DNA from: a virus
Taxonomy: Duplodnaviria; Caudoviricetes
IMG/VR virus record: IMGVR_UViG_3300035208_007487
Direction: 5' to 3' (one strand)
Length of the DNA: 64,000 bases
This document shows positions 39,711 through 57,671 of this stretch, piece after piece (the first letter of the stretch is position 1; every line of letters starts with the position of its first letter). The notes beneath the pieces were generated by a model that searched no databases, had not been told where the DNA came from, and worked only from the letters and a program-made list of their open reading frames with translations. A program made the position numbers and the translations under genes.

Positions 39711-40154
39711 TTCGTAGCAGCACATTAATCTCTAAATAAAAGTATGCAAAGTTATGTAAAAAGGATATAAATTTGCATATTTTTAATTTTAATGAAAAAA
39801 TAAGATATTTGCAGTAATTTTTTGTTATACTTAATATTAGATGAAGAGGCGGTTGTAAGACCGCCACATCAAGCAAAAACCACGCTTGATGATTCAACAT
39901 CTGATTGTTGGCCAATGGCCAACAGCCCCGACTAGAAATAGTCAAAGAGTTGTGTAAATACAACAATTGTACTTGAAAAACAGTACTGGATACGGGAAGT
40001 TCTCCCGGAATCCGGCTTTGCCTAGGCAAAGCCTAACGCTTGCAGAGATCGGAGGTTTCAGTTTGGTGAAAGTCAAACAGTGCGGGTCGTTGAAGCAAGA
40101 AATCAAAAGTACAAAATCAGGCTTGCCTAGTTTTGCACACTTTTGGTGGAACGG
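39711..40154 (+). mobile_element. 444-bp non-autonomous IS607-type element carrying omegaRNA, copy 1
   Basis: TGGG|TTCGTAGCAGC...TAGTTTTGC..GAACGG; near-identical to 56681-57124; 3' part homologous to the tnpB tail. Confidence 0.85.
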
Positions 40155-40206
40155 TTATCTTCCCATTTTATGATTAGTTTAATTTCACTCATGTTATCTC
40201 CTATTC

Positions 40207-40497
40207 TTATTTAATTAAATATTTATTTTTACCATTGGAATCAACATATTCCGTAGTAAAATTCGTATGATAGCATGTACGATAATGTTTATTAAACTTA
40301 GGAATATAATCTTTTAATTCTTGAGAAGTATGTATTGGTAATTCATTAATCTTTAAATTAGGATAAGAATAATATGTATATGGAGTAGCATTGTTTTGCA
40401 TATATTTCACTAATCGAATTGGTTCTTCAATTATATTTTTCACAATTAATCCTTTATGCTGAATAGTTAGCTGCAATGGTTCTTTTATTAAGTCCAA
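40207..40497 (-). CDS. partial CxxGFH-family paralog
   Basis: EPIRLVKYM.N.ATPY...LP matches the N-terminus of 40454-40960. Confidence 0.55.
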   Translation of the reverse strand: MDLIKEPLQLTIQHKGLIVKNIIEEPIRLVKYMQNNATPYTYYSYPNLKINELPIHTSQELKDYIPKFNKHYRTCYHTNFTTEYVDSNGKNKYLIK

Positions 40498-40960
40498 ATA
40501 AATTGAAAATACTTGGGCGATCTTTCAAGGTTAGTAAATCATCATAATTAGCAACTCCAGCAGCTTTAGCCTTCGTAATAATATTAGCAATATATCTATC
40601 AGTAATCAGTGCAGAGTACTTAGACTCAAGTTGGCTAATGAATTTCATATTTTGGCAAGAAAGTTTAATTTTATTCCCTTCAATTTCATCATACTCATCA
40701 ATAAAGTTAACGTCTAGCACTCCACTTACTTCAACTAAATAAGCATCCAATTTAAGATCTCCCCAAAATTGAATACCTTCAATTGGAACTGCATGATATC
40801 CATACTTGCAGTTTTCAACTTTTAATCCCAAAAATTTAGAATATTTACGGCTAGGCAAATTATTTAAATCTAAATCATCATAACCGCATAGTTGGTATGG
40901 AGCATACCCGTTATGTAAAAATTTAACAAGTTTTATTGGTTGTCTAGTATATATTTTCAT
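40454..40960 (-). CDS. CxxGFH-family paralog
   Basis: CKYGYHAVP...AYLVEVSG...KLSCQNMKFI. Confidence 0.75.
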   Translation of the reverse strand: MKIYTRQPIKLVKFLHNGYAPYQLCGYDDLDLNNLPSRKYSKFLGLKVENCKYGYHAVPIEGIQFWGDLKLDAYLVEVSGVLDVNFIDEYDEIEGNKIKLSCQNMKFISQLESKYSALITDRYIANIITKAKAAGVANYDDLLTLKDRPSIFNLFGLNKRTIAANYSA

Positions 40961-41805
40961 CGGAACTCCTGCAAATACTGTTTATTGAAAGTAGGAATAG
41001 TTATTTTAGGCAAAGGCTCTAATCCAGTTCTAGCTAATTTCCAATAATTTAATGTGGTTGGGTCAGGTTGGAAATTCAAATTTTTGCATCTTGTTAGTAT
41101 AATATCAAATACTTTAGATGCTTTATTTTCACCGAGTAGATAAAAAGTAGATTTAATAATTCGAGTAATTCTTAGATGATTATGATCGTGCATTACTGCC
41201 CATTTACTAGTTCTATTATAATAATCCAATAATTTATCTAACCCATTTAGGAAATTTGCAATTGCATCTGAGGAATCTTTAATTTGCTTTTCTACTTCAG
41301 GTGTTAAGACTGGAACAACGAAATTAAATAAGCTAGCTTCTCTTAGTGGAAATATCCATTGAATATAATCATGGCATCTTTCTAAATTACGATCACTGAA
41401 TCGCATAATATCTGAAAAAAATCTGCCTTCATCATTTTTAACTTTATCACTAAGAAAATCACATAGATTTACTGTAGATGGAAGTAATGGTACAAAATCT
41501 CCAAAAACATCTTCATAATCAAGCGGAACTGAGGGAAGCAATTCATCTTTAATTTTTAATATTTCATTTGGATTAAATGTAGATATCATTGAAGAGTTAC
41601 AATAAACATATCTATTCTTTTTAATACTATTTGCTATCCTTTTTTGTTCACTAGCCATAGGCATAATTGAAAAGAAAGCTTTGAAGTGATCATATAAAAA
41701 TAACCACTCTGTTGCACTAAGAGTATCATGAAACCACATATTGCAAAATTCTGAATAATAAAATTTGTCAGCTAATATTTCTTTAGGGTTAAGTTTTTTT
41801 GTCAT
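40957..41805 (-). CDS. OGFr (opioid growth factor receptor) N-domain-like protein
   Basis: LERCHDYIQWIFPL.E.S.FN...HNHLRITRIIKS...T..YW. Confidence 0.8.
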   Translation of the reverse strand: MTKKLNPKEILADKFYYSEFCNMWFHDTLSATEWLFLYDHFKAFFSIMPMASEQKRIANSIKKNRYVYCNSSMISTFNPNEILKIKDELLPSVPLDYEDVFGDFVPLLPSTVNLCDFLSDKVKNDEGRFFSDIMRFSDRNLERCHDYIQWIFPLREASLFNFVVPVLTPEVEKQIKDSSDAIANFLNGLDKLLDYYNRTSKWAVMHDHNHLRITRIIKSTFYLLGENKASKVFDIILTRCKNLNFQPDPTTLNYWKLARTGLEPLPKITIPTFNKQYLQEFR

Positions 41806-42170
41806 ATAGAAGTAGCTCCGTTATCCTTTGTATATTTAAAGTTACCATATTCTGGATGTTCTGTTAAATATTCGTTAATATTGACTTCTACTGAACTATT
41901 GATTTTCAAATCATGCCCAATAGATATTTTATTGAAATTAGGTATAGCTGAATGTTTGGTTAATAATTCTCTAAAAGTAATATTATTATATAAAAATAAT
42001 GTTTTACCTTTTTTAGTTATAAAGAATTCTCGCCAATAATTATTATTTTCATCATCATCTTCCCAATCAATAATTACAAATAAATCTACATCTTTTTGGT
42101 ATAGAACAGTTAAAGGGCCATCAAACCAAAGAATATCCATTACATATTCTCCAAAAGGCGATGCATTCAT
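41802..42170 (-). CDS. hypothetical protein
   Basis: operonic ORF with WFDGPL motif. Confidence 0.65.
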   Translation of the reverse strand: MNASPFGEYVMDILWFDGPLTVLYQKDVDLFVIIDWEDDDENNNYWREFFITKKGKTLFLYNNITFRELLTKHSAIPNFNKISIGHDLKINSSVEVNINEYLTEHPEYGNFKYTKDNGATSI

Positions 42171-42173
42171 TTC

Positions 42174-42446
42174 TTATACTCCAAATATTTTGTTAAACCA
42201 ACTAGATTTCTGCTTTGGCTCCGAAGTAGTTAGAATTGCAGATTCATCTTCAGCAATTTTTCTTTTAAATTCTGAATATGATTTGGAATCAGAATATTTC
42301 ATCTTACTCTTATATCGTTGAAATAGTTCTTCTAATAATTTTGCTTTATTGGGCTTTTTTACAGGATCTATCTTTCTAGTATCAACATAATCAATAGGCT
42401 CATTCCCTTCGTCCCATTTCTTCACATAGATATTTTTAATATTCAC
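42174..42446 (-). CDS. hypothetical protein
   Basis: operonic ORF. Confidence 0.6.
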   Translation of the reverse strand: MNIKNIYVKKWDEGNEPIDYVDTRKIDPVKKPNKAKLLEELFQRYKSKMKYSDSKSYSEFKRKIAEDESAILTTSEPKQKSSWFNKIFGV

Positions 42447-42448
42447 AC

Positions 42449-42634
42449 TTAAAGCTTTCTTTTTATTTTTGTACCAAAATGTATTATAGTTCTAGTTCCA
42501 TCTGCAAAATCTGTTAAATCAGTATCACATTCAGGGCAATCGTCAGATGGAACTTTTCCTTTAGCTATGCAATAATCTGATCTATGATCTTGACCACAGT
42601 GATTACAACGAATTATTTCGATATTATTGGGCAA
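42449..42634 (-). CDS. small Zn-ribbon protein
   Basis: CNHC...CPEC. Confidence 0.65.
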   Translation of the reverse strand: MPNNIEIIRCNHCGQDHRSDYCIAKGKVPSDDCPECDTDLTDFADGTRTIIHFGTKIKRKL

Positions 42635-42971
42635 GAAAAGCCTTAAATTCTTTTATTTTAGATAATCTTCCTTTTAAATATGATTCATGTATTTTTTCTT
42701 CAAATAATTCTTTAAATTTATTTAAAGGAATATTCTTAATAACAAGATCAAGTAAATAATCATCAATTATTTCATATTCTTTATTTTCAATAAGTCGGCT
42801 AAGTTTAATACCTTCTATAGTATTTTTAAGTATACTAAAACCACTTCCTAATTCTGTATAAACAATCCAATATGATTTAGAATTTTGAGAAACACTGCTT
42901 TTAATTGGAAGACCCATATTAATAGAGCTATTTAATGTATCGCCACTTCCAATGGTAAAATCATCCCACAT
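42624..42971 (-). CDS. hypothetical protein
   Basis: AGGAG RBS. Confidence 0.65.
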   Translation of the reverse strand: MWDDFTIGSGDTLNSSINMGLPIKSSVSQNSKSYWIVYTELGSGFSILKNTIEGIKLSRLIENKEYEIIDDYLLDLVIKNIPLNKFKELFEEKIHESYLKGRLSKIKEFKAFLAQ

Positions 42972-43410
42972 TTATTGTCTCCTGATATTTTGAACTTGTA
43001 AGTTTTACTTGTGAGTTGGATTTTCTAATAGATTCTAAGGATCTGGATATTTGCTCAATAGTAAATTTGTTTAAATATTCAAATTCACCGTAGCATAAAA
43101 CTGTCAAAACTACTAAAGTTTCTTTACTAATAGTGAAAAGTAAATAGTTAGATTTCAAATAATAATTATGCCGATTCTTTTTGATATCCATTTGCAGATG
43201 TTTTTCATCAATAAATGGAGTGCTATTGTAAAAGAATTCTTTAAATAATTCAATCTTTTTGTATATTGGCTCATTTAAGATATTTTTATATAATATTGAA
43301 TATCTGAGTGAGAATCTATGTAAGGCATGTTTAGATACTTTTAAAGTTAATTCATTCCCATTATCATCAGTTACATTTAATTCCATATTATAGATGAGAT
43401 TATCAAACAT
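42961..43410 (-). CDS. hypothetical protein with SKHA..RF motif
   Basis: VSKHALHRFSLR...VLTV. Confidence 0.65.
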   Translation of the reverse strand: MFDNLIYNMELNVTDDNGNELTLKVSKHALHRFSLRYSILYKNILNEPIYKKIELFKEFFYNSTPFIDEKHLQMDIKKNRHNYYLKSNYLLFTISKETLVVLTVLCYGEFEYLNKFTIEQISRSLESIRKSNSQVKLTSSKYQETINVG

Positions 43411-43473
43411 GGCTAAATTCCTTAAATGATATTATTTGTCAGAAATCCATTTTCCATCAATAAGATTGTAAAT

Positions 43474-44908
43474 CCGTTCTAACAAATCTATGCAAAACTA
43501 TGCTCACCTTACGGCTCGCACTCAAGATGCAGAGCATGATTTTGCGATTTGAATTCTTGTTTCATAGACGAACACTGTTCCGTTAGGAACTGTAACCTTT
43601 CATCTCCACAAGCGTCACTTCCGGTGGAACTCACCGTAGATTCACCCGAAGGTGAATGTTTATCAATCATCCAAAGACCTAGATATTGTAGATTTTTAGC
43701 GGCATTGACATCTCGATCAAGATGCGTTCCACAATAGCTACAAGTCCATTCTCTATCTGATAGTTTTAAGTCATTATGTTTATGTCCACAAACACTACAA
43801 TACTTTGAAGATGCATAAAAGGCTGGAGCCATAATTAAATGAACACCATTCCATGCACACTTATACTTCAAAGTATCCTTAATCTTACCAAAGGAAGAAT
43901 CCAAAACTGCACTTGCTAGTTTGTGATTCTTGGACATATTCTTTGGTTTTAATGTTTCAATAACTATGACCTTTGGCTTGGTTTTCACCAAAGATGTTGT
44001 CAACTTATGCACACTGTCATTGCGGATGTCCGCAACTCTCTTGTGAATTCGTGACAACTTTGTTATTGCTTTCTGCTTATTTTTACTTCCTTTAACTCTA
44101 CGAGAAACCATTCTTTGATACCTTTTGAGTTTCACTAAATGTTTCTTGTAGGCTTTAGGGTTCTCGAAGGTTTCACCTTCACTGGTGATTGCTAACTCTT
44201 TTATACCTAAATCTACACCTAGAATATCACATTCTTCTATAGATTCTATTGAAGCTAAATCAGGCACATCAACTGTTTCTGGTAATAAGAATGAGACATA
44301 CCATCTATCACACTGTCTTGAAACAGTAGCTTGTGATAGCAAACACTTACCTTCGAGAATTGGGTAGTTCCTTTCCTTGAGTCTGATCTTTCCTAGATTT
44401 GGAAGTTGAACATAGTCAGATGCAATGTAGACTGAACCTGTCAATCGGAATGAATCTCTTTGTCCACGCTTCTTGAATTTAGGATAACCCGACTTATTAA
44501 TAAAGAATCGTTTAAATGCTACTTCTAGATCTCTTAATGCCTCTTGACCACAGCATTTAGAGGTTTCTCTTATCCAAGGAAGTTCAGTTTTTAATAAAAC
44601 CCAATCTTTATGCCAATCAATAGCTGATCCGAAAGTAGACGGGACTTTATTTAATCCATACATAATAGCTAAGGCTTTATTAGCTTCATATTCACTTATA
44701 AGTTTATCTAATTTCCAATTATAGGCAAAGCGAGAAGTTCCTGCGCTCTTAGCGCAGAGAACTCTTTGACTTTGATTGAGCTTTAACTCAAGCCTATAAC
44801 CACGCATCTTCATCTGTTATTATTTATTCCTCTTTTTTTGTATGAAATGTCAAGTAGTTTTGCTCAAGTTTGCCTAGTTTTGCGTAGATTTATTGGAGCA
44901 GCTACTAA
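43474..44908 (-). mobile_element. tnpB-only IS607-type element (1435 bp)
   Basis: left end AGGG|TTAGTAGCTGC with GCAAAACTA repeats; right end TAGTTTTGC..GAACGG; removal restores ...NLEKG-IYNLIDGKWISDK*. Confidence 0.85.
43509..44813 (-). CDS. tnpB: RNA-guided endonuclease TnpB
   Basis: intact RuvC D/E/D motifs and Zn finger; close paralog of 31256-32545. Confidence 0.92.
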   Translation of the reverse strand: MKMRGYRLELKLNQSQRVLCAKSAGTSRFAYNWKLDKLISEYEANKALAIMYGLNKVPSTFGSAIDWHKDWVLLKTELPWIRETSKCCGQEALRDLEVAFKRFFINKSGYPKFKKRGQRDSFRLTGSVYIASDYVQLPNLGKIRLKERNYPILEGKCLLSQATVSRQCDRWYVSFLLPETVDVPDLASIESIEECDILGVDLGIKELAITSEGETFENPKAYKKHLVKLKRYQRMVSRRVKGSKNKQKAITKLSRIHKRVADIRNDSVHKLTTSLVKTKPKVIVIETLKPKNMSKNHKLASAVLDSSFGKIKDTLKYKCAWNGVHLIMAPAFYASSKYCSVCGHKHNDLKLSDREWTCSYCGTHLDRDVNAAKNLQYLGLWMIDKHSPSGESTVSSTGSDACGDERLQFLTEQCSSMKQEFKSQNHALHLECEP

Positions 44909-45166
44909 CCCTTTCTCTAGATTCTTGTTAAAACATTGACAATTATTATGTCCACCTGTTTCATATTGAACATCACTCATTTCAAATGCAGCCCAAATAG
45001 CAGGCCATCCTGCATACTCTACTATATCTGAAAACACCTGATCATCTATTGACAGAGAAACACTAGTATACGACTTATTGAGAATAGGATCTTTACAATA
45101 AATAGCAATTCGACTAATTTTGACTTTTTTGCAAGCTCTTAAAAATCTAGTTGTCGTCTCATTCAT
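44864..45166 (-). CDS. hypothetical protein, 3' end displaced by the tnpB element
   Basis: GAGGAG RBS; native C-terminus lies beyond 43473. Confidence 0.65.
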   Translation of the reverse strand: MNETTTRFLRACKKVKISRIAIYCKDPILNKSYTSVSLSIDDQVFSDIVEYAGWPAIWAAFEMSDVQYETGGHNNCQCFNKNLEKGLVAAPINLRKTRQT

Positions 45167-45268
45167 AAGGCACTCCTCTCGCTGGTCAAAGGTTACTATG
45201 AATATAATAATAAGTGAGGGGGGTGTCAATCTTGATGTTACAAGGCGTTAAAATTTTATTACTATTTT

Positions 45269-45958
45269 TTGATGCTATATTGGAGCCTCGATTCAATCAA
45301 ATCAATAAGCCACTTAAAGTATTTGTTTGCAAAAGATAATCAGGGATTAATTTTCAAATTTAAATTATCTGGAGCTATTAGTGGAAAGCTAAACTTAAAA
45401 GAAGCAGTAGTTGAGCCAATTGATAGTGTACTAAGTTTAACATATATATCTTCAAATATTACCGATGTGCTAAAAAGCTATAATTTTGTAGATGAGCATA
45501 ATGTTAGATATATTTTAATGATTAAAGAATTTGCAAAATATCCAGATCTTTTTGTATGCAATTTACGTAAGAAAAATGAATTGTTAGTTAAATGCGCAGA
45601 TACAGTAGGTAATCCCAAAAAATTCGGATATCCATTATTGAATAGTTATGATATATATAAAGTTGATAATATTCAATGGGATCCCTCAATTAAAGATGCC
45701 CCTAAAGATATTACAGAAATTAGCCGAAATGATGCAATTATATTACGATTTATTTGCAAAGATTGCGGCAAAAATACTATAAGTAGTTCTGATTATTATA
45801 TGGTAAATAATAACATTTGGAAGAAATATGGTGTTGATGGCATGCTTTGTTTAAAATGTTTAGAGAGAAGGATTGGAAGAAAATTAGTATTTGAAGATTT
45901 CACAGATTGTTTATTAAATCGTAATAATGAATTTGTTAAAGGATTGGCGAAGCAATGA
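45269..45958 (+). CDS. hypothetical protein with C-terminal Zn finger
   Basis: CKDC...YMV...W...LCLKCLERRIGR.L...DF. Confidence 0.7.
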   Translation: MMLYWSLDSIKSISHLKYLFAKDNQGLIFKFKLSGAISGKLNLKEAVVEPIDSVLSLTYISSNITDVLKSYNFVDEHNVRYILMIKEFAKYPDLFVCNLRKKNELLVKCADTVGNPKKFGYPLLNSYDIYKVDNIQWDPSIKDAPKDITEISRNDAIILRFICKDCGKNTISSSDYYMVNNNIWKKYGVDGMLCLKCLERRIGRKLVFEDFTDCLLNRNNEFVKGLAKQ

Positions 45959-46338
45959 ATACAATATTTGAAATAGGTTCGTTAATTTGGAATCATTTAG
46001 TATTATATAATCTAATTGGAGTTGTTGTATTAATTGGGGTATTATATATTGAAATTAGAAGAGATGTTGGGCTTGCTTACAGTGTAGCTAATCCTTGTCT
46101 ATTAGTATTAATTCCATTATGGCCTTTGCTTATATTGGAGCAGTTAGTTATTGCCGCTATTTTATTAGGACTACATTATTATCACCCCCGAATTAAGAAA
46201 CCAATACATAAAGAAAATATCGTTTCATTTGATGCAAATTCAATGTATACTACTAGTATACTGCCGAATGATTCAAGGTTTTCTAGTTTCATATCACCAG
46301 ATGAACGTAGGAGTAATAATGAAATTGCGATTAAATAA
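45955..46338 (+). CDS. membrane protein
   Basis: hydrophobic segments. Confidence 0.6.
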   Translation: MNTIFEIGSLIWNHLVLYNLIGVVVLIGVLYIEIRRDVGLAYSVANPCLLVLIPLWPLLILEQLVIAAILLGLHYYHPRIKKPIHKENIVSFDANSMYTTSILPNDSRFSSFISPDERRSNNEIAIK

Positions 46339-46813
46339 GCCAATTAAACTACTCAAGTTTATGTGTGATGGTTTCACTCCATTTACAGGTAAGGAATTTG
46401 AAAATTTAAACGATGAATACTTACCTTCAAAAATATATAAAATAGATGACCCGCAAAAAATTGAACAATGTAAATGGGGATACCATGCTGTACCTATTGA
46501 TGGTATTGAAGGCTGGGTTGAACCCAACTATAGCGCATATATTGTTGAAGTAAGTGGAGTGATTGATATTAAAAGATCTCACAGATTTAGTAAAATTGCG
46601 GCTGAAAATATTCAATTCATTGCAAAAATTCCAAATTATTTGTGGAAAATTCAAAATTCTAATGATGAGAGAGATTGTCTTTTGCATATTGACTCTGCTG
46701 AAATATTGCAGGATATTGCTAAAGAAAAAGGAGTGATTTCTTTATCTTGGTGGAGAATGGGATTATATATAATGCTGGCTATTTTATATAAACATTGCAA
46801 TAATCAGGAGTAA
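46319..46813 (+). CDS. CxxGFH-family paralog
   Basis: CKWGYHAVP...AYIVEVSG...KIAAENIQFI; AGGAG RBS. Confidence 0.75.
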   Translation: MKLRLNKPIKLLKFMCDGFTPFTGKEFENLNDEYLPSKIYKIDDPQKIEQCKWGYHAVPIDGIEGWVEPNYSAYIVEVSGVIDIKRSHRFSKIAAENIQFIAKIPNYLWKIQNSNDERDCLLHIDSAEILQDIAKEKGVISLSWWRMGLYIMLAILYKHCNNQE

Positions 46814-46817
46814 TATA

Positions 46818-47321
46818 ATGAAGAAACTGATTTTAAGTATTTTAATTCTATTAGCTACTCAAGTATTTTCAAGCTCACCTAAAATACCTGCAAATTTTGC
46901 ATATATGGGTAATAATGATGGGATTATTACTTATTATGATTCATCTGATTTAGATATTCATGCAAAAGTAAATACAGAAGATTCGACATATCATGTATAT
47001 GTTTGGATAGCTAATTTAATTAATAATAGTGAAACGCATCATAAAGATTTATTGGTTATTACTAATGATGAGATTGTTTGCAAAGTATCTGGTAAATCTA
47101 TTATATCTGGAATACCTTATATTACTTGCGATAATTTAACTTTCAATGTATTATCAGGATCAGCTTGCTTATACTCAAAAAACAAGATGCCTAAATGCGA
47201 TATAGTTATTGACAAGAATACTAATGATGTAATAATCCCTGGATCATTAATGTGGCAATGGTGGCCTGTAATGTCAATTAAAGGACTACTTAGCCTAGCT
47301 AAAACAATACCTGTTGAATAA
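46818..47321 (+). CDS. secreted protein
   Basis: signal peptide; YYDSSDL...HVYVW. Confidence 0.7.
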   Translation: MKKLILSILILLATQVFSSSPKIPANFAYMGNNDGIITYYDSSDLDIHAKVNTEDSTYHVYVWIANLINNSETHHKDLLVITNDEIVCKVSGKSIISGIPYITCDNLTFNVLSGSACLYSKNKMPKCDIVIDKNTNDVIIPGSLMWQWWPVMSIKGLLSLAKTIPVE

Positions 47322-47331
47322 GGAGCGCAAT

Positions 47332-47853
47332 ATGAAATATGATCCAAAACTGTCAAGATATGCTATAAAATATCTGTATAAGAATAAAGAGACTGGTAAG
47401 TTATTTGGCCCGATTAAAGATTTTGAATATAAAGTTGGGAAATGGTGTACTATTAAAGGCAAAGTAAAAGCATGTGAAAATGGATTCCATGTTCCATCTT
47501 ATAATGATATATTCTTAGAAAATTATTCATGGTATGATGAATATGCTAAACGTAATGATTATCAAGTTAATGACTTAATAATTGCATTAGTTGAAGTGAG
47601 CGGATATTTATCTAACACAAGTTATGGTTATTGCCATTTAGATACTGGCAAAATAGCATTTAAAAGAATTAAAATAATTAAAGAAATAACGATTGATATA
47701 TCTTCATTGCCATTGGAAGGTGAAGGTTCAAGATGGGCCGCTATTCTTAATATAGTAAATAAATTGAATAAAAAATATCGTACAATTTATCATGAAGATT
47801 TTGACAAATATGTTTTTACTAATAGACTTAATAATACATATCTAATCAAATGA
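47332..47853 (+). CDS. CxxGFH-family paralog
   Basis: FEYKVGKW...CENGFHV...LVEVSG...KIAFKRIKIIKEI. Confidence 0.78.
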   Translation: MKYDPKLSRYAIKYLYKNKETGKLFGPIKDFEYKVGKWCTIKGKVKACENGFHVPSYNDIFLENYSWYDEYAKRNDYQVNDLIIALVEVSGYLSNTSYGYCHLDTGKIAFKRIKIIKEITIDISSLPLEGEGSRWAAILNIVNKLNKKYRTIYHEDFDKYVFTNRLNNTYLIK

Positions 47854-49366: not shown

Positions 49367-49367
49367 A

Positions 49368-49808: not shown

Positions 49809-50129
49809 TAATGAGTACACTACATGATCAAGTTTATGATGAATTTATAAAAATCTTACTTAATAGAGGGTTAGGATTCAAGCTAGGCAAAGAGAGCGCA
49901 AAGGTTTAGTGGTTGAATTTTAATTATTTTTTAATTATATTTTAATGATGAAGCATCTCACCCGAAGCCAGCTTGAAGCCCTATCAACTCCAACTCTTTT
50001 AGCTTATAAAAGAGATCGCATACCTTCTAAAATTATTAATAAAACTGATGTTAGTATGTATGAAACCCATTGTCATATTAAAGAAATATTAACCATTAGA
50101 AAACAAGTTAATCTAGAGGAAATAGATTC

Positions 50130-50654
50130 ATGCCATTTGAATTAAGCGCAATAATATATGGAGTATTTGGTATATTTAATGGGCTACTTGTTGCCATTTT
50201 AATTAATAAAGGATACAAAGAATATCCAAATAAGTATAGTTTAATTATAAGCTATACTTTATATGTATTAGGTGGATTTATTTCATCTGCAATATTATTT
50301 CTTCAAATATTAGCTAGTGATACTGAAGCAATTCAGAGCTTTAAAGGTAAGATAAGTTCAAAACATCTTTGCGATTATAGATATTGCTTAAATCATAAAG
50401 TAGGTAATTATATTTGGGATTTAAATGTTAATGATATATTAATTGTAGACGATGTTGAATATGTATTAGTAACTAAAGATAATGTGTTTTTTGATTATCC
50501 AATTCCAGGCGTTAATACTTGGTTTTATACTTTTGATAATAATTATAAAATAGATAATAGCGATTGGTTTACTTTGGCAATAGATGACAAAGAAAAGCGA
50601 ATTACTATGGCAATGCCTTCTTGCTTAATTGATGAACAGGATGATGATGACTAA
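50130..50654 (+). CDS. membrane protein
   Basis: two N-terminal TM segments. Confidence 0.65.
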   Translation: MPFELSAIIYGVFGIFNGLLVAILINKGYKEYPNKYSLIISYTLYVLGGFISSAILFLQILASDTEAIQSFKGKISSKHLCDYRYCLNHKVGNYIWDLNVNDILIVDDVEYVLVTKDNVFFDYPIPGVNTWFYTFDNNYKIDNSDWFTLAIDDKEKRITMAMPSCLIDEQDDDD

Positions 50655-51414
50655 TACAATTAATAACTATGTTGAAGAATTAATTAAAGCTAGAATTACT
50701 TCTAGAATTAAGCACATTGAATTAGCTAAAATAATGGATATTCTAGGAGTAACATCATTATATATTTGTGGTAATTCATTAAATGCTGAAGTCCCAAATG
50801 ATTATGATATATATTTACTAGAAGATGATTCATTTCGCTTGCATGATTTAAGCTCTAATGAATTATTTAAAGTTAAAATAGAGAAAATTGGATACAAAAT
50901 TACTAGTAGCACTAAAAATGCAGTAACTTTAAAAAATAATTCAGTTATATTACAAATCTGTTTATATCATAAACCTACTTTAAAAGAATTAGTTGATTCA
51001 TTTGATTTTACATATTGCCAAGTTGGAGTAGAAGTATCGTTTGATTGGCTTAATGTTTTAAATATATCTGATGAATATTTTACTTTTGGATATTTGGAAT
51101 TCTTAACATCTAGAGTAACACATTACACGGGATCGGAATATCCAATTTCTTCATTATTGAGATTATTTAAGGTTAAAGATAAAGGATATTTACCTGGAAA
51201 TTTACATATACGTGAATTAATTACAATATTGATTGAAATTGTAGAACGTGGATTTGATGATTATGATGATTTTAAGGATCAACTTGATGCAATTGATTTA
51301 GGATTATTATCTGAAGATTTAAATAGCATTGATAAAAATAATTTATTGAAGTTATTTATTTTAATGGGGAAAGATAAGGAATCGGTTGAAGCCAGCAAAG
51401 AATTTCTTGAATAG
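50647..51414 (+). CDS. nucleotidyltransferase (CCA-adding/poly(A) polymerase head-like)
   Basis: LYICGNSL...NDYDIY (DxD)...QI...LVDSFDFTYCQ. Confidence 0.7.
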   Translation: MTNTINNYVEELIKARITSRIKHIELAKIMDILGVTSLYICGNSLNAEVPNDYDIYLLEDDSFRLHDLSSNELFKVKIEKIGYKITSSTKNAVTLKNNSVILQICLYHKPTLKELVDSFDFTYCQVGVEVSFDWLNVLNISDEYFTFGYLEFLTSRVTHYTGSEYPISSLLRLFKVKDKGYLPGNLHIRELITILIEIVERGFDDYDDFKDQLDAIDLGLLSEDLNSIDKNNLLKLFILMGKDKESVEASKEFLE

Positions 51415-51555
51415 AGCTTGATTTTAGCCCTTTAGAATGGATAATTTTATGCTTCCAAAGAACTGCTCCACCCAGCTATTAAGGTGCTTTAAAAGGCTTA
51501 AATTTTTAATTACATTTAGGTTTTAGAAGCCCACCTCAGTTCAAAAGGAAACAAA

Positions 51556-52404
51556 TTGACTCTCACAGAAAAAATTAAATCATTCTATTCAGGTTGGACT
51601 AACTTGGATTTTGATGATTTTGTTAAGATATTTACTCTAATTTTTTTGCCCTTTACTGCAATTGCGACATTCATTCATCTGCAATTCCGTATGGCTACAA
51701 AAGTTGTAAATACTTGTAGCAATACTAGTATTTCATTAATTGGAATAGCTCCGGTTGAAATAGCTAATTTAATATTCAGCCTTTGGTTTGGTATGGTAAT
51801 TGCACTTATCTTATCAGTACTATTGTTTATCGCTAAAGAAATAGTGGGAGCAGTTGGAGAGCTGTTTGGCGTTAATGATCCTCCAAAAGAAAAAGAAGAA
51901 AATTTTAATTATGTTATTCCAAATACTACTTCAAGATTGACTAGATTAGGTAGAGTTATTAGATATTATGCTAAAAAAGTTTTATATACTTCATTAATAC
52001 ATCCTGGGCTAATTTGTATGGAAGGTTACCTCTTATTAGTAGTTTTTGGATTGCTTGGATGGTTCTTACCAATTGATACTTGCTTAAATACTGAGGGCAA
52101 ACAGCTAGCTAAACTAGGCGACTTATTCGCATTGTTATTCTTAGGTGTAGGTGCCATTTATTTAATAGCAAAATTAGATATATATAATAATATTGTAAAG
52201 AAATTGCCAGCTAATGTATTTAAGTCATTGTCAGATTTTTGGTTTTATATTGATATTATTGTTGATTTTGAGAAGGAAACTCGATATGATTTATTTAAAG
52301 ATCCAATTGAGAATGTTTGCAAAAAATATGATGATTTAATAATTACCACATGTCCACATATGCTTCTGTTAGTAATCAGACAAATACTTGGGCAATTAGA
52401 TTAA
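51556..52404 (+). CDS. multi-pass membrane protein
   Basis: four hydrophobic segments; AAGGA RBS, TTG start. Confidence 0.7.
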   Translation: MTLTEKIKSFYSGWTNLDFDDFVKIFTLIFLPFTAIATFIHLQFRMATKVVNTCSNTSISLIGIAPVEIANLIFSLWFGMVIALILSVLLFIAKEIVGAVGELFGVNDPPKEKEENFNYVIPNTTSRLTRLGRVIRYYAKKVLYTSLIHPGLICMEGYLLLVVFGLLGWFLPIDTCLNTEGKQLAKLGDLFALLFLGVGAIYLIAKLDIYNNIVKKLPANVFKSLSDFWFYIDIIVDFEKETRYDLFKDPIENVCKKYDDLIITTCPHMLLLVIRQILGQLD

Positions 52405-52627
52405 ATCAAGACAATATAAATCTATCTTCATTTAGCTATCATAAAGATGGCTGCAAACAGGTATACATCAAATATGATAAGTTTGATGATATTGCTCATA
52501 TTATTAACTCAGTTGCTATTCTATTTGAATCAATGATAAAAGAAGACTTAGGTCCAAGTAATAAAAAGGCTATTGATTCTATCAATGAACCTGAATATTC
52601 AAATCCACATACCGAGGATAATAACTC

Positions 52628-52867
52628 ATGAAAAATCTAATCGCTTTAATGCTGTTAAGTTTGGCTCTAGTTGGCTGTGCTGAATCTAAATCAATTAATA
52701 ACAAAGTAATTCCTCCTTATGGATTGTTCAATGAACAAGCTGAAAAAGTCCCAGGAGTTGTATATGAAATTAGTGCTCCTGATATTATCGTAGCTATTAT
52801 ATTCTGCGAAACAATTGTAGTTCCAGTGTATATTTTTGGTTGGGATATGTATCAGCCTGTTAGGTAA
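52628..52867 (+). CDS. small phage lipoprotein
   Basis: lipobox LVGC; PYGLFN...V.YE....IIF.ETIVVP. Confidence 0.8.
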   Translation: MKNLIALMLLSLALVGCAESKSINNKVIPPYGLFNEQAEKVPGVVYEISAPDIIVAIIFCETIVVPVYIFGWDMYQPVR

Positions 52868-52870
52868 AAT

Positions 52871-53557
52871 ATGGTATATAATAAATCGTTCATTAAAATT
52901 GATGGAGTAGTTGTCAAAAACTACTCCTTTACTTATAAACAAGTATTAACTTGTTACAATAAAACATTTTTACAAACTAATGAAGCTAGTGCGCTTAGGT
53001 GTAAAGTATCTCCATTTGAAAGATTAATTCTTATTTGCGATGGTGCTAAACAACCTAGTCCTATCAAGCCTAGTGTATGGCGAATCGGTGATGAATATTG
53101 GCAAAATGAATTTCATATAACTTTTTCAGATATTAAGACTGGGAATTATATTGCGAAATTTGATTTAGAGTATTTTTATTTTACTCCAAGTGAATTAAAT
53201 TTGGATATGATAATTAATGCTGATCTATTGAAAAAAATCAAGCTTCGGGCTAAATCATTTAGATTAAATGAAGAAATATTACATAGATTATATGTCAGGA
53301 TTGAATTGTATTTTAATAATACTAAAGCTAATGGCTATATCGGAGCTAATGAATGGATAATGTTTATTGCGCATGGAGCATATCCTGTATTTTTTAAAGA
53401 TGTTAAAAAATACAATGAATTTTTAGAAGAGATATTAGTTAAATCTAAAAATGGAGATAATTCCAATAAATATAGCTATTTTAATGTTACCCCAACTATT
53501 TTACAATTATTCAAAAAATATAAATTTGTAGAAAAGGCTGAATATGTTAAGCAATAA
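52871..53557 (+). CDS. hypothetical protein
   Basis: operonic ORF. Confidence 0.65.
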   Translation: MVYNKSFIKIDGVVVKNYSFTYKQVLTCYNKTFLQTNEASALRCKVSPFERLILICDGAKQPSPIKPSVWRIGDEYWQNEFHITFSDIKTGNYIAKFDLEYFYFTPSELNLDMIINADLLKKIKLRAKSFRLNEEILHRLYVRIELYFNNTKANGYIGANEWIMFIAHGAYPVFFKDVKKYNEFLEEILVKSKNGDNSNKYSYFNVTPTILQLFKKYKFVEKAEYVKQ

Positions 53558-54230
53558 ATATCCTAAAGGTTCATTTGATCGCACCCAACCATATGAATGC
53601 CATATGAAGGTAATACAATATGATGGAATAGATATAAAAATATTTGATAATGTGCCTTTTAAACAACGCTCATTTTATAACTGCTTATATGATGGAGGAT
53701 TAGAATTTAATATATCATATTCTCCACATGAAATTAATACAGTTATTCATGTATTTGGAAATCCTGAATCATATCTTGTTGAAAATAATGATACTTATGT
53801 ATTAGCAATTATTACTAATATTGATGCCAAAGTTCAACAAATTAATATGCTTAAAGTTGCGTTAATTAATACTTATATTCAAAGTATATTAGATAAAGCT
53901 AAAATAATTAATAGTAATATTACTAAACATAGTAAAATGTGCAATGAAGTCTTTAATAAAAATCTATTTAATGAATATAATAAGCTATTTAAATTAGGTA
54001 GCAAAGTTAGGATAAACATTAAACATTCTGAAAAAATAGAGCCCTGGCTTATTAAAGAATTATGTGGAGCAACTGGTACAATTTCAGAAATTATAAATAT
54101 TGAAGATATTAATGAAGATGAAATAATGCCTTGGGATCTATATTCAAGATATTATGTTAAATTAGATGCAAGAACTAAGTTCGATAAAACAGAAATGTAT
54201 TTTGATGCAATTGATTTAGAATTAATTTAG
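53544..54230 (+). CDS. hypothetical protein with SH3-like C-terminus
   Basis: FKLGSKVRI...GATGTI...YYVKLD. Confidence 0.65.
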   Translation: MLSNKYPKGSFDRTQPYECHMKVIQYDGIDIKIFDNVPFKQRSFYNCLYDGGLEFNISYSPHEINTVIHVFGNPESYLVENNDTYVLAIITNIDAKVQQINMLKVALINTYIQSILDKAKIINSNITKHSKMCNEVFNKNLFNEYNKLFKLGSKVRINIKHSEKIEPWLIKELCGATGTISEIINIEDINEDEIMPWDLYSRYYVKLDARTKFDKTEMYFDAIDLELI

Positions 54231-54834
54231 TTATAATTAATGCATGTACAATTCAATTACGATAGTTAGTGAAGAAATTATTCAAGATCGTATTAAAACA
54301 TTTAGATTAGAAGGTAGTGCTAAATTGCATGAAATCTTTAAAAAACAGATTAAATTAGGCACTATCATTTATCCTCCTCATATCTCTACTAGTGGAGATG
54401 GTAAATGGTAGGTAATACTGATATTATTAAAATATCCAAAAAAGATTTAAGTAGGCTAATTTACGAAGCTTATAAATCAGGTTGGGATAATAGTAATGAT
54501 AATAGAGATGAATTTTATGGAATGAATTATTATCCACCTATTAAAGGGATTAATGATTTTTTTAATGAATCTAAAATATGTGAAAAATTAAAATACTTAT
54601 TAAAAAATAATAAAGGCATTGTTACATGAAATATTCAAATATATTAATAGCTATTGCTTCAATTAGCGTTGGATTAATTATAGCTAAGAAAATTAAATTA
54701 CCTATTATTTCTACTCTTAGATTTAAGAAGCCTTCAAAAGAAGAAAAGGCTGCATTAGAAATTCATGGAGTTGATATTAAAAAAATGCAGGATGAAATTT
54801 TTGAGTATGAAATTAATATAGCAAAGAAAAACAT

Positions 54835-55224
54835 ATGAATGATGAGTTTATTGAATATCTTAGTAAAATATATGGAAAATTATATATAGATAGACTATTA
54901 GATACTCAATCATTTAATTTTTATGACAGCGCTAAATCATTTGAATTTAGTAATATTTTTAAGTGTATTAGTAAAATTAATATTATATGGAAATGTCTTA
55001 ATGTTGATTTAGAATTGGTTCAATTATTTAGACGAAATTTACGTGATAATTTTAGATGCTATAGATATGTATATGATGATAATTCTAAGAATGGCAAATT
55101 AATTGATTATAAATTTGAAATCAATAATGAACTAGTGTGTGAAACCAATCCTAGAAAATCTATCATAAATCTAGATGTTGACAGGTTAAATTCATTTATT
55201 AATAATTATAAGTTCACTAAATAA
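54835..55224 (+). CDS. hypothetical protein
   Basis: operonic ORF. Confidence 0.6.
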   Translation: MNDEFIEYLSKIYGKLYIDRLLDTQSFNFYDSAKSFEFSNIFKCISKINIIWKCLNVDLELVQLFRRNLRDNFRCYRYVYDDNSKNGKLIDYKFEINNELVCETNPRKSIINLDVDRLNSFINNYKFTK

Positions 55225-55276
55225 TATTTGTTAGAATTTACACAGTGCAAGTAGCACAAAAAAAGGAAAAAATATA

Positions 55277-55513
55277 ATGAGTATGTTTAAATTAGTCCCA
55301 GCTTTAGCTCTTAGTCTCGGCATGACTTTCGCCCTTGGTGCATGCCAGAAGAACGCTGTAGTGGCTGGAACCGATAGCACTAAGGTTGACAGCGTTAAAG
55401 TGGATACTGCTAATACAGATACTACTAAGGTAGATACTTCCAAGGTAGTAGCCAAGAAGGATACAACTAAAGCCGTTAAATCTGCTAAAGTTGTTAAAGC
55501 TGCTAAAAAGTAA
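55277..55513 (+). CDS. small lipoprotein with DTTKVD repeats
   Basis: lipobox LGAC; DSTKVDSVKVDTANTDTTKVDTSK; own terminator at 55538-55565. Confidence 0.85.
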   Translation: MSMFKLVPALALSLGMTFALGACQKNAVVAGTDSTKVDSVKVDTANTDTTKVDTSKVVAKKDTTKAVKSAKVVKAAKK

Positions 55514-55566
55514 TTAAATAATTAAAGTTATTTAATTGAGCCTCTAAGTAATTAGAGGCTTTTTTG

Positions 55567-55953
55567 TTAGAATAATTTCTTATTAGTAACTAAATTAAGG
55601 GCTGAAATTAATTTAGCTTTTTTAACAATTATTTCACTTCCACCAGTGGCCGCATCTTGTTCATTTGGATCGCCTTTAACTAAATCAGATATTATATGAT
55701 ATTCATAAGTTAAAAGTAATGAAGGCAAATCACTTTCATCTTCTGGTTCAGAATAGTAATAATCTGTAGCAAATTTAGGGCTAGTTGCCAAATACATATT
55801 TCCAGTTGCTATTGAATTTTTTCTTAATGGATATTTTACAGTATTATCAGCTAGGCTAAGTGCATCTTTGCCATCAAATAATACAACCTTATATCCATAT
55901 CTAATATCATTATTGCTCTCTTCATATAAACAGTCATTGTATAGAAGTTTCAT
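55567..55953 (-). CDS. MK..YE-tag protein, ART-like fold
   Basis: TATAAATA upstream; MKLLYNDCLYE; YK...MYLATSPKFA...SEIIV. Confidence 0.65.
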   Translation of the reverse strand: MKLLYNDCLYEESNNDIRYGYKVVLFDGKDALSLADNTVKYPLRKNSIATGNMYLATSPKFATDYYYSEPEDESDLPSLLLTYEYHIISDLVKGDPNEQDAATGGSEIIVKKAKLISALNLVTNKKLF

Positions 55954-56022
55954 AATTAATATTTATATACTCTGAGGCCCAAAAAACTTTACGAGTATTT
56001 TTAATTTAATTATTACTAAGAT

Positions 56023-56496
56023 ATGGCTACTGCAATCTCAATTGAACCAGATGAAGATACTAAAGGATTCTTGGCTGGATTTATTATTTTTGCTTTAATA
56101 ACTAATTTCTTTTTTGTGCAAGTGTGGGGGCCTGATATTAAAGCTGATCTTTTCAATAAAGGATTTAGGCAATATCAATTAACTTCAATTGCATATGGAA
56201 CTAATGAAAATAAACAAGTTATTAAATCTATTAAAGGCTATTATTTAGATAATAATGATCTATATAATCGTAATCAGGCTGGCAATATGGATGTTCCCAC
56301 TAATTGGTATAATACTAATATAATATATAAAGAAGAAGCAACTGGATTATTTGGAATTATACTGATGGAATTATTTAATCTTTTAGTTTGCCTTCTTCCT
56401 TCAATAATTTGCCAGAAATTATTTGCTCAATGTTTCTTAAATAATAGAATTAATAAAAATAGAAAAGAATATATCGTGAAAGGTAAAATAGCATGA
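56023..56496 (+). CDS. membrane protein
   Basis: two TM segments. Confidence 0.65.
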   Translation: MATAISIEPDEDTKGFLAGFIIFALITNFFFVQVWGPDIKADLFNKGFRQYQLTSIAYGTNENKQVIKSIKGYYLDNNDLYNRNQAGNMDVPTNWYNTNIIYKEEATGLFGIILMELFNLLVCLLPSIICQKLFAQCFLNNRINKNRKEYIVKGKIA

Positions 56497-57671
56497 ACAT
56501 CCTAGATATTGAAGAACGTAGGATTAAGCTACCTAAAGCTGAATCTTATGAAGTGCAAGATAAAAAAATAAGATTAGAAATTCTTAAAAAGAAATTATCT
56601 GATCCTGAATTATTGGAGTTTGAAAAAGCACAAATTCGAGCCAATATAAAGGAATTAGAGCATTCAATTAAAGCTGAGGGTTATTAGCAGCAGGTTAATC
56701 TCTAAATAAAAGTATGCAAAGTTATGTAAAAAGGATATAAATTTGCATATTTTTAATTTTAATGAAAAAATAAGATATTTGCAGTAATTTTTTGTTATAC
56801 TTAATATTAGATGAAGAGGTGGTTGTAAGACCGCCACATCAAGCAAAAACCACGCTTGATGATTCAACATCTGACTGTTGGCCTTTGACCAACAAATCCG
56901 ACTAGAAATAGTCAAAAAGTTGTGTAAATACAACAATTGTACTTGAAAAACAGTACTGGATACGGGAAGTTCTCCCGGAATCCGGCTTTGCTTAGGCAAA
57001 GCCTGACGCTTGCAGAGATTGGAGGTTTCAGTTTGGTGAAAGTCAAACAGTGCTGGTCGTTGAAGCAAGAAATCAAAAGTACAAAATCAGGCTTGCCTAG
57101 TTTTGCACACTTTTGGTGGAACGGCTTGAATGTTACTAAAATGGATTCACGTTATGACCGAATTGATATGGACTATGTAGAGAAGATACGAATATTCAGT
57201 AAATCACTTGGTAAATATGTTCCAAGATTTGCAATATATAAGTTAAGTGAATCTAAATTAAGAATGATAATAAATTGTCAATGTGATCATCATCATTCAA
57301 AAGATGTATATGAAACTAATGTATATCCTAGTGAATTAAATCAAGATAATTATTCAGATATTATGGGTGAAACACTCTTAACAAGAATTTGCAAATCTTA
57401 TTTCAGTGAAGAAAATGAGGTAATTAAATATACCCACGAATTTAAGGGATTATTTCCAGATGAAGTTCGTAAAATAATTAAAGAATGTGGATTCCAATTA
57501 GACCAGCTATTTCTCATTGAAGAGTCTTATGCTTGGAATTGCACAGTTGAGAGAATAAATCCTGATCCTATTATTGTGGGTTTATACCAAAATTACTTTT
57601 ATTATATTTGTTCATTTGATATAACATCAATGGAGCAATTTGTTTTAACTGAAAAGACTACTCATGTTTGA
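56493..57671 (+). pseudogene. single gene split by the 444-bp element
   Basis: removing 56681-57124 gives in-frame ...HSIKAEG-LNVTKMDSRY... Confidence 0.75.
56681..57124 (+). mobile_element. 444-bp non-autonomous IS607-type element, copy 2
   Basis: AGGG|TTATTAGCAGC...GAACGG; near-identical to 39711-40154. Confidence 0.85.

What the first reader, a model, noticed from the sequence alone, without database searches (positions are those of the whole stretch)
39711..57124. Protein-free IS607-type elements encoding an omegaRNA fused to an extra structured RNA module
Seen: two near-identical 444-bp elements (39711-40154, 56681-57124), both inserted after nGGG, with ends matching the tnpB element at 43474-44908 (left TTnnTAGCnGC, right TAGTTTTGC..GAACGG). 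Each has an internal promoter TTGCAG-N17-TAATAT, then ~150 nt of hairpins absent from the tnpB element: an AGATG/CATCT-closed junction with GGCGGT/ACCGCC and CATCAAGC/GCTTGATG arms, then TGTTGG/CCAACA, GACTA-GAAA-TAGTC, GTTGT/ACAAC and GTACT/AGTAC. The omegaRNA-like scaffold follows and runs into a flank-derived guide (TTATCTTCCC... or CTTGAATGTT...). Several differences between copies fall in loops or give G-U pairs. Known: TnpB omegaRNAs derive from the element right end plus flank. Inference: an RNA-only mobile guide cassette borrowing TnpB (and TnpA) in trans, with an uncharacterised 5' RNA domain.
Basis: partly seen in the sequence, partly recalled or inferred. Interest (0 to 1): 0.85.

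Follow-up and report, generated by a model that had tools for sequence, protein, structure and literature searches.

The report
Gene-less guide-RNA transposon with extra RNA domain
A giant phage carries small gene-less jumping elements that encode only a guide RNA for the TnpB nuclease. That kind of element is known, but here the guide is fused to a conserved, tightly folded 150-base RNA domain of unknown function that matches no described RNA family.

Summary
Copies A (39711-40154) and B (56681-57124) are 96-97% identical 444-bp elements. Both lie after nGGG and end in GAACGG, and their ends match the tnpB element at 43474-44908.

The family is larger than reported:
- three more copies on a second contig of the same phage, two of them only 71-74% identical;
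- one copy in a related phage;
- one copy in an unrelated viral contig.

An allele lacking exactly the 444 bp of copy B exists in public runs. Copy B splits a conserved phage gene and copy E splits a tRNA-Leu gene.

The 3' 167 nt is the guide scaffold of IS607-type TnpB (RAGATH-18 core, reRNA/omegaRNA). Four TnpB genes lie on the contig. No serine transposase was found on the two phage contigs.

The 5' 150 nt is a real RNA structure. In the whole RNA 98.7% of pair cells are paired, and 24 pairs changed on both sides (16 of them in the 5' domain). Its G-U pairs fit only the sense strand. It matches no Rfam family (no group I intron), has no conserved ORF and shows no tnpB similarity.

Gene-less guide cassettes are already known, and this scan has noted them in other genomes and at this same locus. 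The new part is the 5' domain. Its function is untested and transcription is not shown.

The parts
39711..40154 (+). Copy A, a gene-less IS607-type mini-element (444 bp). It lies after ATGGG, in the spacer between convergent genes.
39711..39790 (+). Left end of copy A. It holds the motif TATGCAAAGTTA and its inverted copy, related to TAGTTTTGCA in the right end. These are presumed transposase-binding repeats (inferred).
   Evidence: read; imperfect AT-rich inverted ends are described for IS607/group B IStrons in PMC4227781
39823..39831 (+). Extended -10 promoter-like site TGTTATACT, ending 7 nt before AGATG. This position is conserved in all lineages (L112 has TGCTACAAT). The start site is inferred, not shown.
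   Evidence: not called by the consensus scan
39837..39904 (+). 5' domain, three-way junction. The invariant closing helix is (U)AGAUG..GA / UC..CAUCU(A). It encloses a GNRA-capped hairpin (39848-39865) and a second hairpin (39869-39889).
39907..39986 (+). 5' domain, four hairpins: 39907-39923; 39930-39943 (GAAA loop); 39949-39964 (GNRA-like loop); 39969-39986 (invariant loop UGAAAAAC).
   Evidence: 13 of these 21 pairs changed on both sides
39988..40154 (+). Guide-RNA scaffold (reRNA/omegaRNA). It has a 5' flank of two hairpins (39988-40033), a RAGATH-18-like core (40038-40096) and a 3' flank hairpin (40104-40145), and ends in GAACGG.
   Evidence: PMC11061315
40155..40174 (+). Presumed guide of copy A, taken from the flank (TTATCTTCCC...).
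   Evidence: position relative to the right end; model of 10.1101/2023.11.20.567912
56681..57124 (+). Copy B, after GAGGG, in sense orientation inside a conserved phage gene. Its 5' domain is about 56807-56956 and its scaffold 56958-57124.
57125..57144 (+). Presumed guide of copy B (CTTGAATGTT...). It matches the empty-site allele seen in public runs, where it directly follows GAGGG.
   Evidence: joint 56678->57123
56493..56680 (+). N-terminal piece of the gene split by copy B. The reading frame stops at TAG inside the element's left end.
57125..57671 (+). C-terminal piece of the split gene, in frame with the N-terminal piece once the 444 bp are removed.
   Evidence: uninterrupted homologs P0003-P0005 (255-263 aa) cover both pieces
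43474..44908 (-). tnpB element T1, with related ends. The tnpB ORF is 43509-44813 (434 aa). Its guide scaffold overlaps the 3' end of the ORF.
31274..32542 (-). Second TnpB gene in the window (T3), 76% identical to T1, with a divergent right end.

Best explanation
These are non-autonomous, gene-less derivatives of an IS607-type tnpB element living in a giant phage.

Anatomy. Each copy keeps the two transposon ends, a promoter-like extended -10 site, and a complete guide-RNA scaffold (RAGATH-18 core with both flanks) that reads out into the neighbouring DNA. Each copy therefore makes its own guide.

Mechanism (inferred). One of the four phage TnpB nucleases, most likely the T1/T2 type whose ends are closest, is loaded with this RNA in trans. 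It cuts genomes that carry nGGG plus the flank but lack the insert, such as co-infecting sister phages or a site left empty by excision. Repair from the filled copy then copies the element in. This follows the homing model shown for IS605 and IS607 elements. New sites need a serine transposase that was not found here.

The 5' domain. Between the presumed start site and the scaffold lies an extra ~150-nt domain: a three-way junction plus four hairpins, three of them capped by GNRA loops. It sits where the tnpB ORF used to be. It is under selection as a sense-strand RNA structure.

Best guess for its role (inferred, about 1 in 3). It is a cis-acting domain that makes a guide RNA workable without its own mRNA and protein. 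It would bury the 5' end in a helix and fold compactly, so the RNA stays stable and correctly folded until TnpB, made from a phage late-type promoter, arrives or processes it.
For: Shown:
- Seven copies in three lineages share the same anatomy: five in this genome, L007 and L112.
- The ends resemble those of T1/T2. The first ~35 nt of the left end of copy D are nearly identical to T1, and ATG lies at about the same distance from the left end in both (~92 vs ~95 nt).
- All copies lie after nGGG and end in CGG (one, L112, reads TAGG by my placement). This matches the published IS607 target motif and scaffold end (10.1101/2023.11.20.567912; PMC13565253).
- The scaffold is homologous to the 3' end of the tnpB elements, with compensatory changes and a residual match to TnpB residues ~391-430. 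Weak RAGATH-18 hits fall on the core. Its parts of about 50, 66 and 53 nt fit the published reRNA layout (PMC11061315).
- A joint skipping exactly 444 bp is seen in a DNA run and in an RNA-library run. A related phage has a copy in a spot where this phage has none.
- TnpB T1 is a full-length TnpB, and four paralogs lie on the contig.
- For the whole RNA, 98.7% of pair cells are paired and 24 pairs changed on both sides, against 1-4 in slid controls. 16 of those pairs are in the 5' domain.
- The 5' domain has 17 G-U cells, which would be A-C on the other strand.
- Folding of the 5' domain gives z = -7.7.
- The 5' domain shows no protein or DNA similarity to tnpB and no conserved ORF.
- Most other gene-less cassettes of this guide family have no comparably structured upstream part.

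Inferred: the promoter and start site, TnpB loading, cutting and homing, and the stabilising role of the 5' domain.
Against: - No transcript start or end is shown. The RNA-library contigs cannot prove transcription and may be DNA carry-over.
- No TnpA serine recombinase lies on C18 or C172, or beside six related phage TnpBs checked.
- The mini-element scaffold is not a recent copy of T1-T4. One hairpin is gained and one lost relative to T1, by my own reading. Which TnpB accepts it is therefore open.
- A simple stabiliser would not need seven helices, three GNRA loops, and an invariant junction and loop. That degree of conservation suggests a more specific function.
- Covariation rests on three lineages, so each compensatory change is only one or two events.
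Confidence: 0.6

Rival explanations
1. The 5' domain is an independent cargo RNA that rides on the mini-transposon. It could be a phage regulatory or anti-defence RNA, a protein-binding scaffold, a transcription antitermination signal, or a new self-cleaving ribozyme that sets the 5' end of the guide. In this reading it has a function of its own and is not a helper of the guide.
For: - The closing helix, the junction and the loop UGAAAAAC are invariant, while the other stems are freely replaced.
- Three GNRA tetraloops suggest a compact tertiary fold.
- The domain is found only in phage DNA: this phage, L007 and L112.
- Most other gene-less cassettes lack any such part.
Against: - The domain has never been seen apart from the guide scaffold. 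The covariance model finds it only fused to one.
- No known ribozyme, riboswitch or other Rfam family matches, even at E up to 10.
- There is no terminator between the domain and the scaffold.
Confidence: 0.22
2. The element is a miniature IStron-like intron. The 5' domain, with or without the scaffold, would remove the whole element from host transcripts. That would make insertions in genes and in a tRNA harmless.
For: - The layout is that of an IStron without its genes: left end, structured RNA, guide RNA, right end.
- Gene-less IStrons exist (PMC4227781).
- Six of seven copies point the same way as the local genes.
- Copy B sits in a conserved gene, copy C in an ORF (in frame) and copy E in tRNA-Leu(CAA).
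- A contig from an RNA library joins the two gene halves exactly.
Against: - There is no match to the group I intron model at E up to 10 in three lineages, whereas the same library finds a phage group I intron in L095. IStron introns are reported to match that model (10.1101/2023.11.20.567912).
- The same exact joint stands in a DNA run, and the RNA-library run shows no filled site at this locus. The joint is therefore an empty allele, not a splice.
- The region between the left end and the domain differs in sequence and length between subfamilies.
- I saw no conserved pairing partner for the upstream exon (my reading).
Confidence: 0.05
3. The elements are inert relics. The 5' part is decayed tnpB sequence or junk left by an internal deletion, and the copies merely persist.
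For: - The first ~20 nt of the domain (AGATGAAGAGGCGG...) resemble the tnpB start region of T1 (ACAGATGAAGATGCG...), at about the same distance from the left end.
- Other gene-less cassettes keep such remnants; one example is L034, with an ATG followed by a TnpB-like N-terminus.
- No transposase was found.
Against: - Beyond those 20 nt there is no similarity to tnpB at the protein level or the DNA level (z = -0.8 to 2.2).
- Whole stems are replaced while pairing and the GNRA loops are kept, in three lineages 71-80% identical overall.
- Copies A-C differ by only 3-4% and sit at different sites.
- A filled/empty polymorphism exists in nature.
Confidence: 0.06

Closest known systems
Gene-less (PATE-like) derivatives of TnpB transposons that still encode the guide RNA, and stand-alone omegaRNAs
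   Same: - Both transposon ends are kept and there is no protein gene.
- The guide scaffold runs into the flank.
- A TnpB encoded elsewhere must act in trans.
- There are several copies per genome.

Meers et al. [quoted passage not shown]
   Different: - Those described are IS200/IS605-type, with hairpin ends and a tyrosine TnpA. These are IS607-type (GG core, nGGG) and live in a phage.
- The described elements carry no extra structured RNA. Here about 150 nt of covarying structure precede the scaffold.
- Stand-alone omegaRNAs (Altae-Tran 2021) are cited from my own knowledge and from scan notes. I did not read that paper here.
IS607 TnpB with RAGATH-18-derived guide RNA (reRNA), e.g. ISFba1 (PMC11061315)
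   Same: - The core shares the sequence and shape of RAGATH-18 (CUUGyrGAGA ... UGAArCAAGAA), with conserved flanks of about 50 and 55 nt.
- The target motif GAGGG/nGGG is G-rich.
- The paper notes that 36% of RAGATH-18 RNAs are not next to a TnpB.
   Different: - The core scores only 17.8-22.5 bits against a gathering score of 44.9.
- In this phage's tnpB elements the scaffold overlaps the ORF, whereas the paper describes it as separate.
- The published scaffold (187 nt) has nothing like the 5' domain.
Group B (IS607-type) IStrons, e.g. CboIStron, and the gene-less BcISt1 variants (10.1101/2023.11.20.567912; PMC4227781)
   Same: - The order of parts is the same: left end, structured RNA, guide RNA, right end.
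- Insertion is after GGG and the element ends in CGG.
- Orientation is sense, inside genes.
- Gene-less variants exist, and IStrons occur in phages.
   Different: The structured RNA here is not a group I intron. It has no RF00028 match, its shape is a three-way junction plus a row of hairpins, and it starts at an internal promoter-like site about 127 nt inside the element instead of at the exon junction. No splicing is shown.

Membership tests
IS607-family transposable element (non-autonomous derivative) | Inserts at a GG-containing target (nGGG next to the left end) and its right end finishes in CGG | tested here: met
   Six of seven copies, and T1/T2, follow nGGG (ATGGG, GAGGG x3, TTGGG x2). 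The L112 copy reads TAGG by my placement of its left end. All seven end in GAACGG.
IS607-family transposable element (non-autonomous derivative) | No target-site duplication; removal restores the original sequence | tested here: met
   The empty allele skips exactly 444 bp, with only the 2-nt GG ambiguity. Rebuilt empty sites restore a 245-aa ORF and a tRNA-Leu gene.
IS607-family transposable element (non-autonomous derivative) | Serine-recombinase TnpA available to move it | tested here: not met
   PF00239 hits fall only on C84, C81 and C25 of the bin. None is on phage contigs C18/C172 and none is next to a TnpB. No resolvase lies upstream of the six related phage TnpBs checked. The assembly is incomplete (83%).
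IS607-family transposable element (non-autonomous derivative) | Ends shared with a protein-coding element of the family | tested here: met
   The left and right ends match T1/T2 (family D12, 14, 32).
RAGATH-18 / reRNA (guide RNA of IS607 TnpB) | Reaches the Rfam RF03064 gathering score | tested here: not met
   17.8 bits (copy A) and 22.5 bits (L007) against 44.9. Phage versions in 14 other loci also stay below the cut-off.
RAGATH-18 / reRNA (guide RNA of IS607 TnpB) | Homologous, with kept pairing, to the RNA at the 3' end of TnpB genes, and followed directly by flank DNA | tested here: met
   See the alignment to the T1-T4 3' regions and the blastx match to the TnpB C-terminus. 67 of 120 pattern matches in viral contigs lie at the end of a TnpB gene.
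RAGATH-18 / reRNA (guide RNA of IS607 TnpB) | Bound by TnpB and directs DNA cutting | not testable with these tools
   Needs RIP-seq and interference assays.
Group I intron / IStron | Group I catalytic core (match to RF00028) | tested here: not met
   No hit at E up to 10 in copy A, nor at E up to 5 in D, L007 and L112. The model works on L095 (96 bits).
Group I intron / IStron | Exons joined in RNA while the DNA is filled | tested here: inconclusive
   The joint is seen in an RNA-library contig, but also in a DNA run, and the RNA-library run shows no filled site.
Gene-less guide-RNA cassette (PATE-like) | No conserved protein-coding frame | tested here: met
   The longest frames differ in length and position between copies, and none spans the 5' domain in all lineages.

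The most novel reading that the evidence does not exclude
The 150-nt 5' domain is a new class of functional RNA attached to a TnpB guide. The most striking version is a catalytic or self-processing RNA: a new self-cleaving ribozyme that releases the guide from read-through transcripts, or an intron-like module that removes the element from host RNAs. Either would explain the sense orientation and the tolerated insertions in a conserved gene and a tRNA.
Probability: 0.08. Interest if true: 0.9.

Novelty: new variant of a known kind. Interest (0 to 1): 0.55.

Why it matters
Guide RNAs of TnpB are the ancestors of CRISPR-Cas12 guides and are being developed as very small genome editors. Natural cassettes that carry only the guide show how these RNAs spread and act in trans.

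A conserved accessory RNA domain on such a guide has, as far as I found, not been described. If it stabilises, matures or regulates the guide, it would be a natural design for expressing guides apart from the nuclease. If it has its own activity, it would be a new structured RNA class carried by a transposon.

The phage setting adds a case of likely RNA-guided homing between co-infecting phages: a filled/empty polymorphism in nature, landing sites in tRNA arrays, and a split tRNA gene.

Tried and rejected
- Group I intron / IStron: no Rfam match. The exact exon joint also stands in DNA. Rejected as the main reading.
- Known ribozymes, riboswitches and other Rfam families: nothing at E up to 10 on the 5' domain.
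- Decayed tnpB coding sequence: blastx and shuffled local alignments are negative beyond the first ~20 nt.
- Hidden protein gene: no conserved frame. The micro-ORF at AGATG (MKRRL*, MKRWSQ..., MKR*) is not conserved.
- Pairing between the loop UGAAAAAC and GUUUU of the right end: not kept in copy E or in L112 (my reading).
- tRNA-like reading of the three-way junction: ARAGORN calls no tRNA in the filled sites of copies D and E, which contain the domain.
- More family members:
  - the INPHARED phage collection gave no match;
  - 100 relatives of the bin gave none;
  - four pattern scans of IMG/VR gave only L112;
  - two cyanobacterial pattern hits were chance.
- Transcription from public runs: all runs are kept as contigs only. 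RNA-library contigs cover the element (X16 depth 28.7 against 8.3 for the neighbouring gene; X18 one 184-nt contig), but they cannot show a start, a strand or RNA origin.
- Extra targets of the guides in the bin: each of the four guides whose output was visible (A, B, T1, T2) has one exact match, its own locus. The middle of the output, with C-E, was cut.
- Copy D inside a tRNA: not supported by ARAGORN.
- My interim idea that T3/T4 lack a right end was wrong. They have divergent ends.

Full report
WHAT IS THERE

The window is the last 64 kb of a 212.8-kb contig (C18, 29% GC) binned into a 2.36-Mb, 35% GC assembly. Notes from other readers of this genome and my own reading point to a giant phage: many tRNA genes, a tmRNA and TnpB genes.

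Copies A (39711-40154) and B (56681-57124) are 444 bp each and 96-97% identical. Both lie directly after GGG and end in GGAACGG. The tnpB element at 43474-44908 (minus strand; ORF 43509-44813) has the same kind of ends. The stated observation is correct.

THE FAMILY IS LARGER

- The same assembly holds three more copies on contig C172: C (96% identical), D (74%) and E (71%).
- Metagenome contigs L008 and L009 are the same phage.
- L007 is a related phage with a sixth copy at a place where C18 has none.
- One viral contig, L112, carries a seventh and more distant copy between tRNA genes.
- Six copies follow nGGG (L112 reads TAGG by my placement of its end), and all end in GAACGG.

THE ELEMENT IS A DISCRETE INSERTION

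Public runs contain a form of the copy-B locus that skips exactly 444 bp, with only the GG ambiguity. One contig comes from a DNA run, and one 293-nt contig from an RNA-library run spans 184 + 109 nt. So the element is a discrete insertion that is present or absent in natural populations.

Copy B interrupts a gene. Uninterrupted homologs of 255-263 aa align to both pieces. Copy E interrupts tRNA-Leu(CAA) in the T arm, because ARAGORN finds the tRNA only after the element is removed in silico. Copy C splits an ORF in frame (not checked against homologs). Copy D lies 78 nt upstream of tRNA-Tyr.

THE 3' HALF IS A TnpB GUIDE SCAFFOLD

From GGAUACGGG (39988) to GAACGG (40154), the sequence is homologous to the 3' ends of the four TnpB elements on C18, with compensatory changes. 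It keeps a faint protein-level echo of TnpB residues ~391-430, as expected for a scaffold that overlaps the ORF in the parent.

Rfam gives a weak RAGATH-18 hit exactly on the core. RAGATH-18 is the core of the guide RNA (reRNA) of IS607-type TnpBs, with conserved flanks of about 50 and 60 nt and a 187-nt scaffold in ISFba1 (PMC11061315). The target motif GAGGG/nGGG and the CGG end fit IS607 elements (10.1101/2023.11.20.567912; PMC13565253). T1 is a full-length TnpB by Pfam, PHROGs and the solved TnpB structures.

THE 5' HALF IS A REAL RNA STRUCTURE

Between the promoter-like site and the scaffold lie seven helices:
- a three-way junction closed by an invariant helix, carrying a GNRA-capped hairpin and a second hairpin;
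- four further hairpins, with a variable loop, a GAAA loop, a GNRA-like loop and an invariant UGAAAAAC loop.

The evidence for structure is as follows.
- The single sequence folds far better than shuffles (z = -7.7).
- On seven copies in three lineages, 98.7% of pair cells are standard pairs. 24 of 97 pairs changed on both sides, against 1-4 when partners are slid, and no shuffle reaches the observed covariation score.
- 16 of the 24 pairs are in the 5' domain, where whole stems are replaced while the loops stay.
- Seventeen G-U cells in the domain would be A-C on the other strand, so the folded strand is the sense RNA.
- A loose end in an RNA-library contig shows a fourth variant of the GNRA hairpin (GGTTGCC-GAAA-GGCAA).

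WHAT THE 5' DOMAIN IS NOT

- It is not a group I intron or any other Rfam family, while the same library detects a phage group I intron elsewhere.
- It is not recognisable tnpB sequence. Only the first ~20 nt resemble the tnpB start region, at about the same distance from the left end as in T1.
- It is not a protein gene.
- A covariance model of the domain finds it only fused to a guide scaffold: in the five own copies and in L112. It is absent from 100 related genomes and from about 150 other viral loci.

PROMOTER

What is conserved in all lineages is an extended -10 (TGnTAnAnT) ending 7 nt before AGAUG. That would put the RNA 5' end at the foot of the closing helix. This is inferred; the consensus scan does not call a promoter here.

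HOW COMMON ARE GENE-LESS CASSETTES

A pattern for the RAGATH-18-like core found more than 117 viral loci. In 67 of 120 matches it sits at the end of a TnpB gene. At least 32 of 84 evaluable matches have no TnpB upstream, and several of those lie in tRNA arrays. Most of these have no comparably structured upstream part, with z around -1.

Gene-less guide cassettes are also known from the literature and from earlier notes of this scan. The cassette itself is therefore ordinary, and the fused domain is the unusual part.

MECHANISM

Shown: the anatomy, mobility in populations, selection on RNA structure, and TnpB genes present in trans.

Inferred: transcription from the internal site, loading onto a phage TnpB, cutting of empty nGGG-plus-flank sites in sister genomes, copying in by repair, and transposition to new sites by a serine TnpA. 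No TnpA was found on the phage contigs or beside six related phage TnpBs checked.

For the 5' domain I commit, at about one chance in three, to a cis-acting role in stability, folding or maturation of a guide made apart from its nuclease. An independent cargo function is nearly as likely. An intron-like or ribozyme function is a long shot. It would, however, explain the sense orientation of six of seven copies and the insertions in a gene and a tRNA.

VERDICT

This is a real, well-supported structured RNA fused to a known kind of gene-less guide cassette. It is a new variant of a known kind, of moderate interest, with function untested.

Noticed in passing
G000:C172:54095-54519 (minus strand; locus L005): Copy E of the element splits a phage tRNA-Leu(CAA) gene in its T arm. 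The GGG of the T stem serves as the target motif. ARAGORN finds the tRNA only in the rebuilt empty site.
   Followed up: yes
L004:2452-2803 (minus) = G000:C172, about 61567-61918: A tmRNA gene (124.9 bits) lies inside the phage tRNA array. C172:52796-64009 holds 23 tRNA genes.
   Followed up: partly
window 43474-43560 and 44805-44825 (T1), and the same places in T2 (C18:15867-17168): The tnpB start region AAGATGC is exactly complementary to GCATCTT in a hairpin of the element's own guide-RNA 3' flank. This could be long-range pairing of the start codon with the guide RNA. T1 and T2 are too similar to test covariation.
   Followed up: no
window 31274-32542 (T3) and C18:127874-129166 (T4): Two further TnpB paralogs (76% and 72% identical to T1) have divergent right ends. 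T3 ends ...TAGAAC followed by TA and so lacks the GG core. T4 ends ...AATCGG.
   Followed up: partly
IMG/VR loci L024, L054, L079, L053, L085, L124 and others: Many short gene-less cassettes with a RAGATH-18-like core occur in phage contigs, often inside tRNA arrays. None reaches the Rfam gathering score, so standard annotation misses them.
   Followed up: partly
L176, L177, L179: about 60-90 nt upstream of the TnpB start (near position 2425): A right-end-like sequence (...TTGCATAGACAATAGAACGG) lies just upstream of another TnpB gene. This suggests tandem or nested elements.
   Followed up: no
window 625-12263: There are five copies of a ~95-nt intergenic repeat (AATAATTCCAAAATTTAG..CTATACTAAATT..), plus related shorter families. 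They look like repeated promoter or regulatory regions.
   Followed up: no
window 40203-40245: A weak match to a CRISPR repeat family (CRISPR-DR49, 26.8 bits, E 0.046) lies just downstream of copy A. It is probably chance in AT-rich DNA.
   Followed up: no
window 40707-40823 and 46456-46572: A 117-nt inverted repeat (71% complementary) flanks the region that holds the T1 tnpB element.
   Followed up: no
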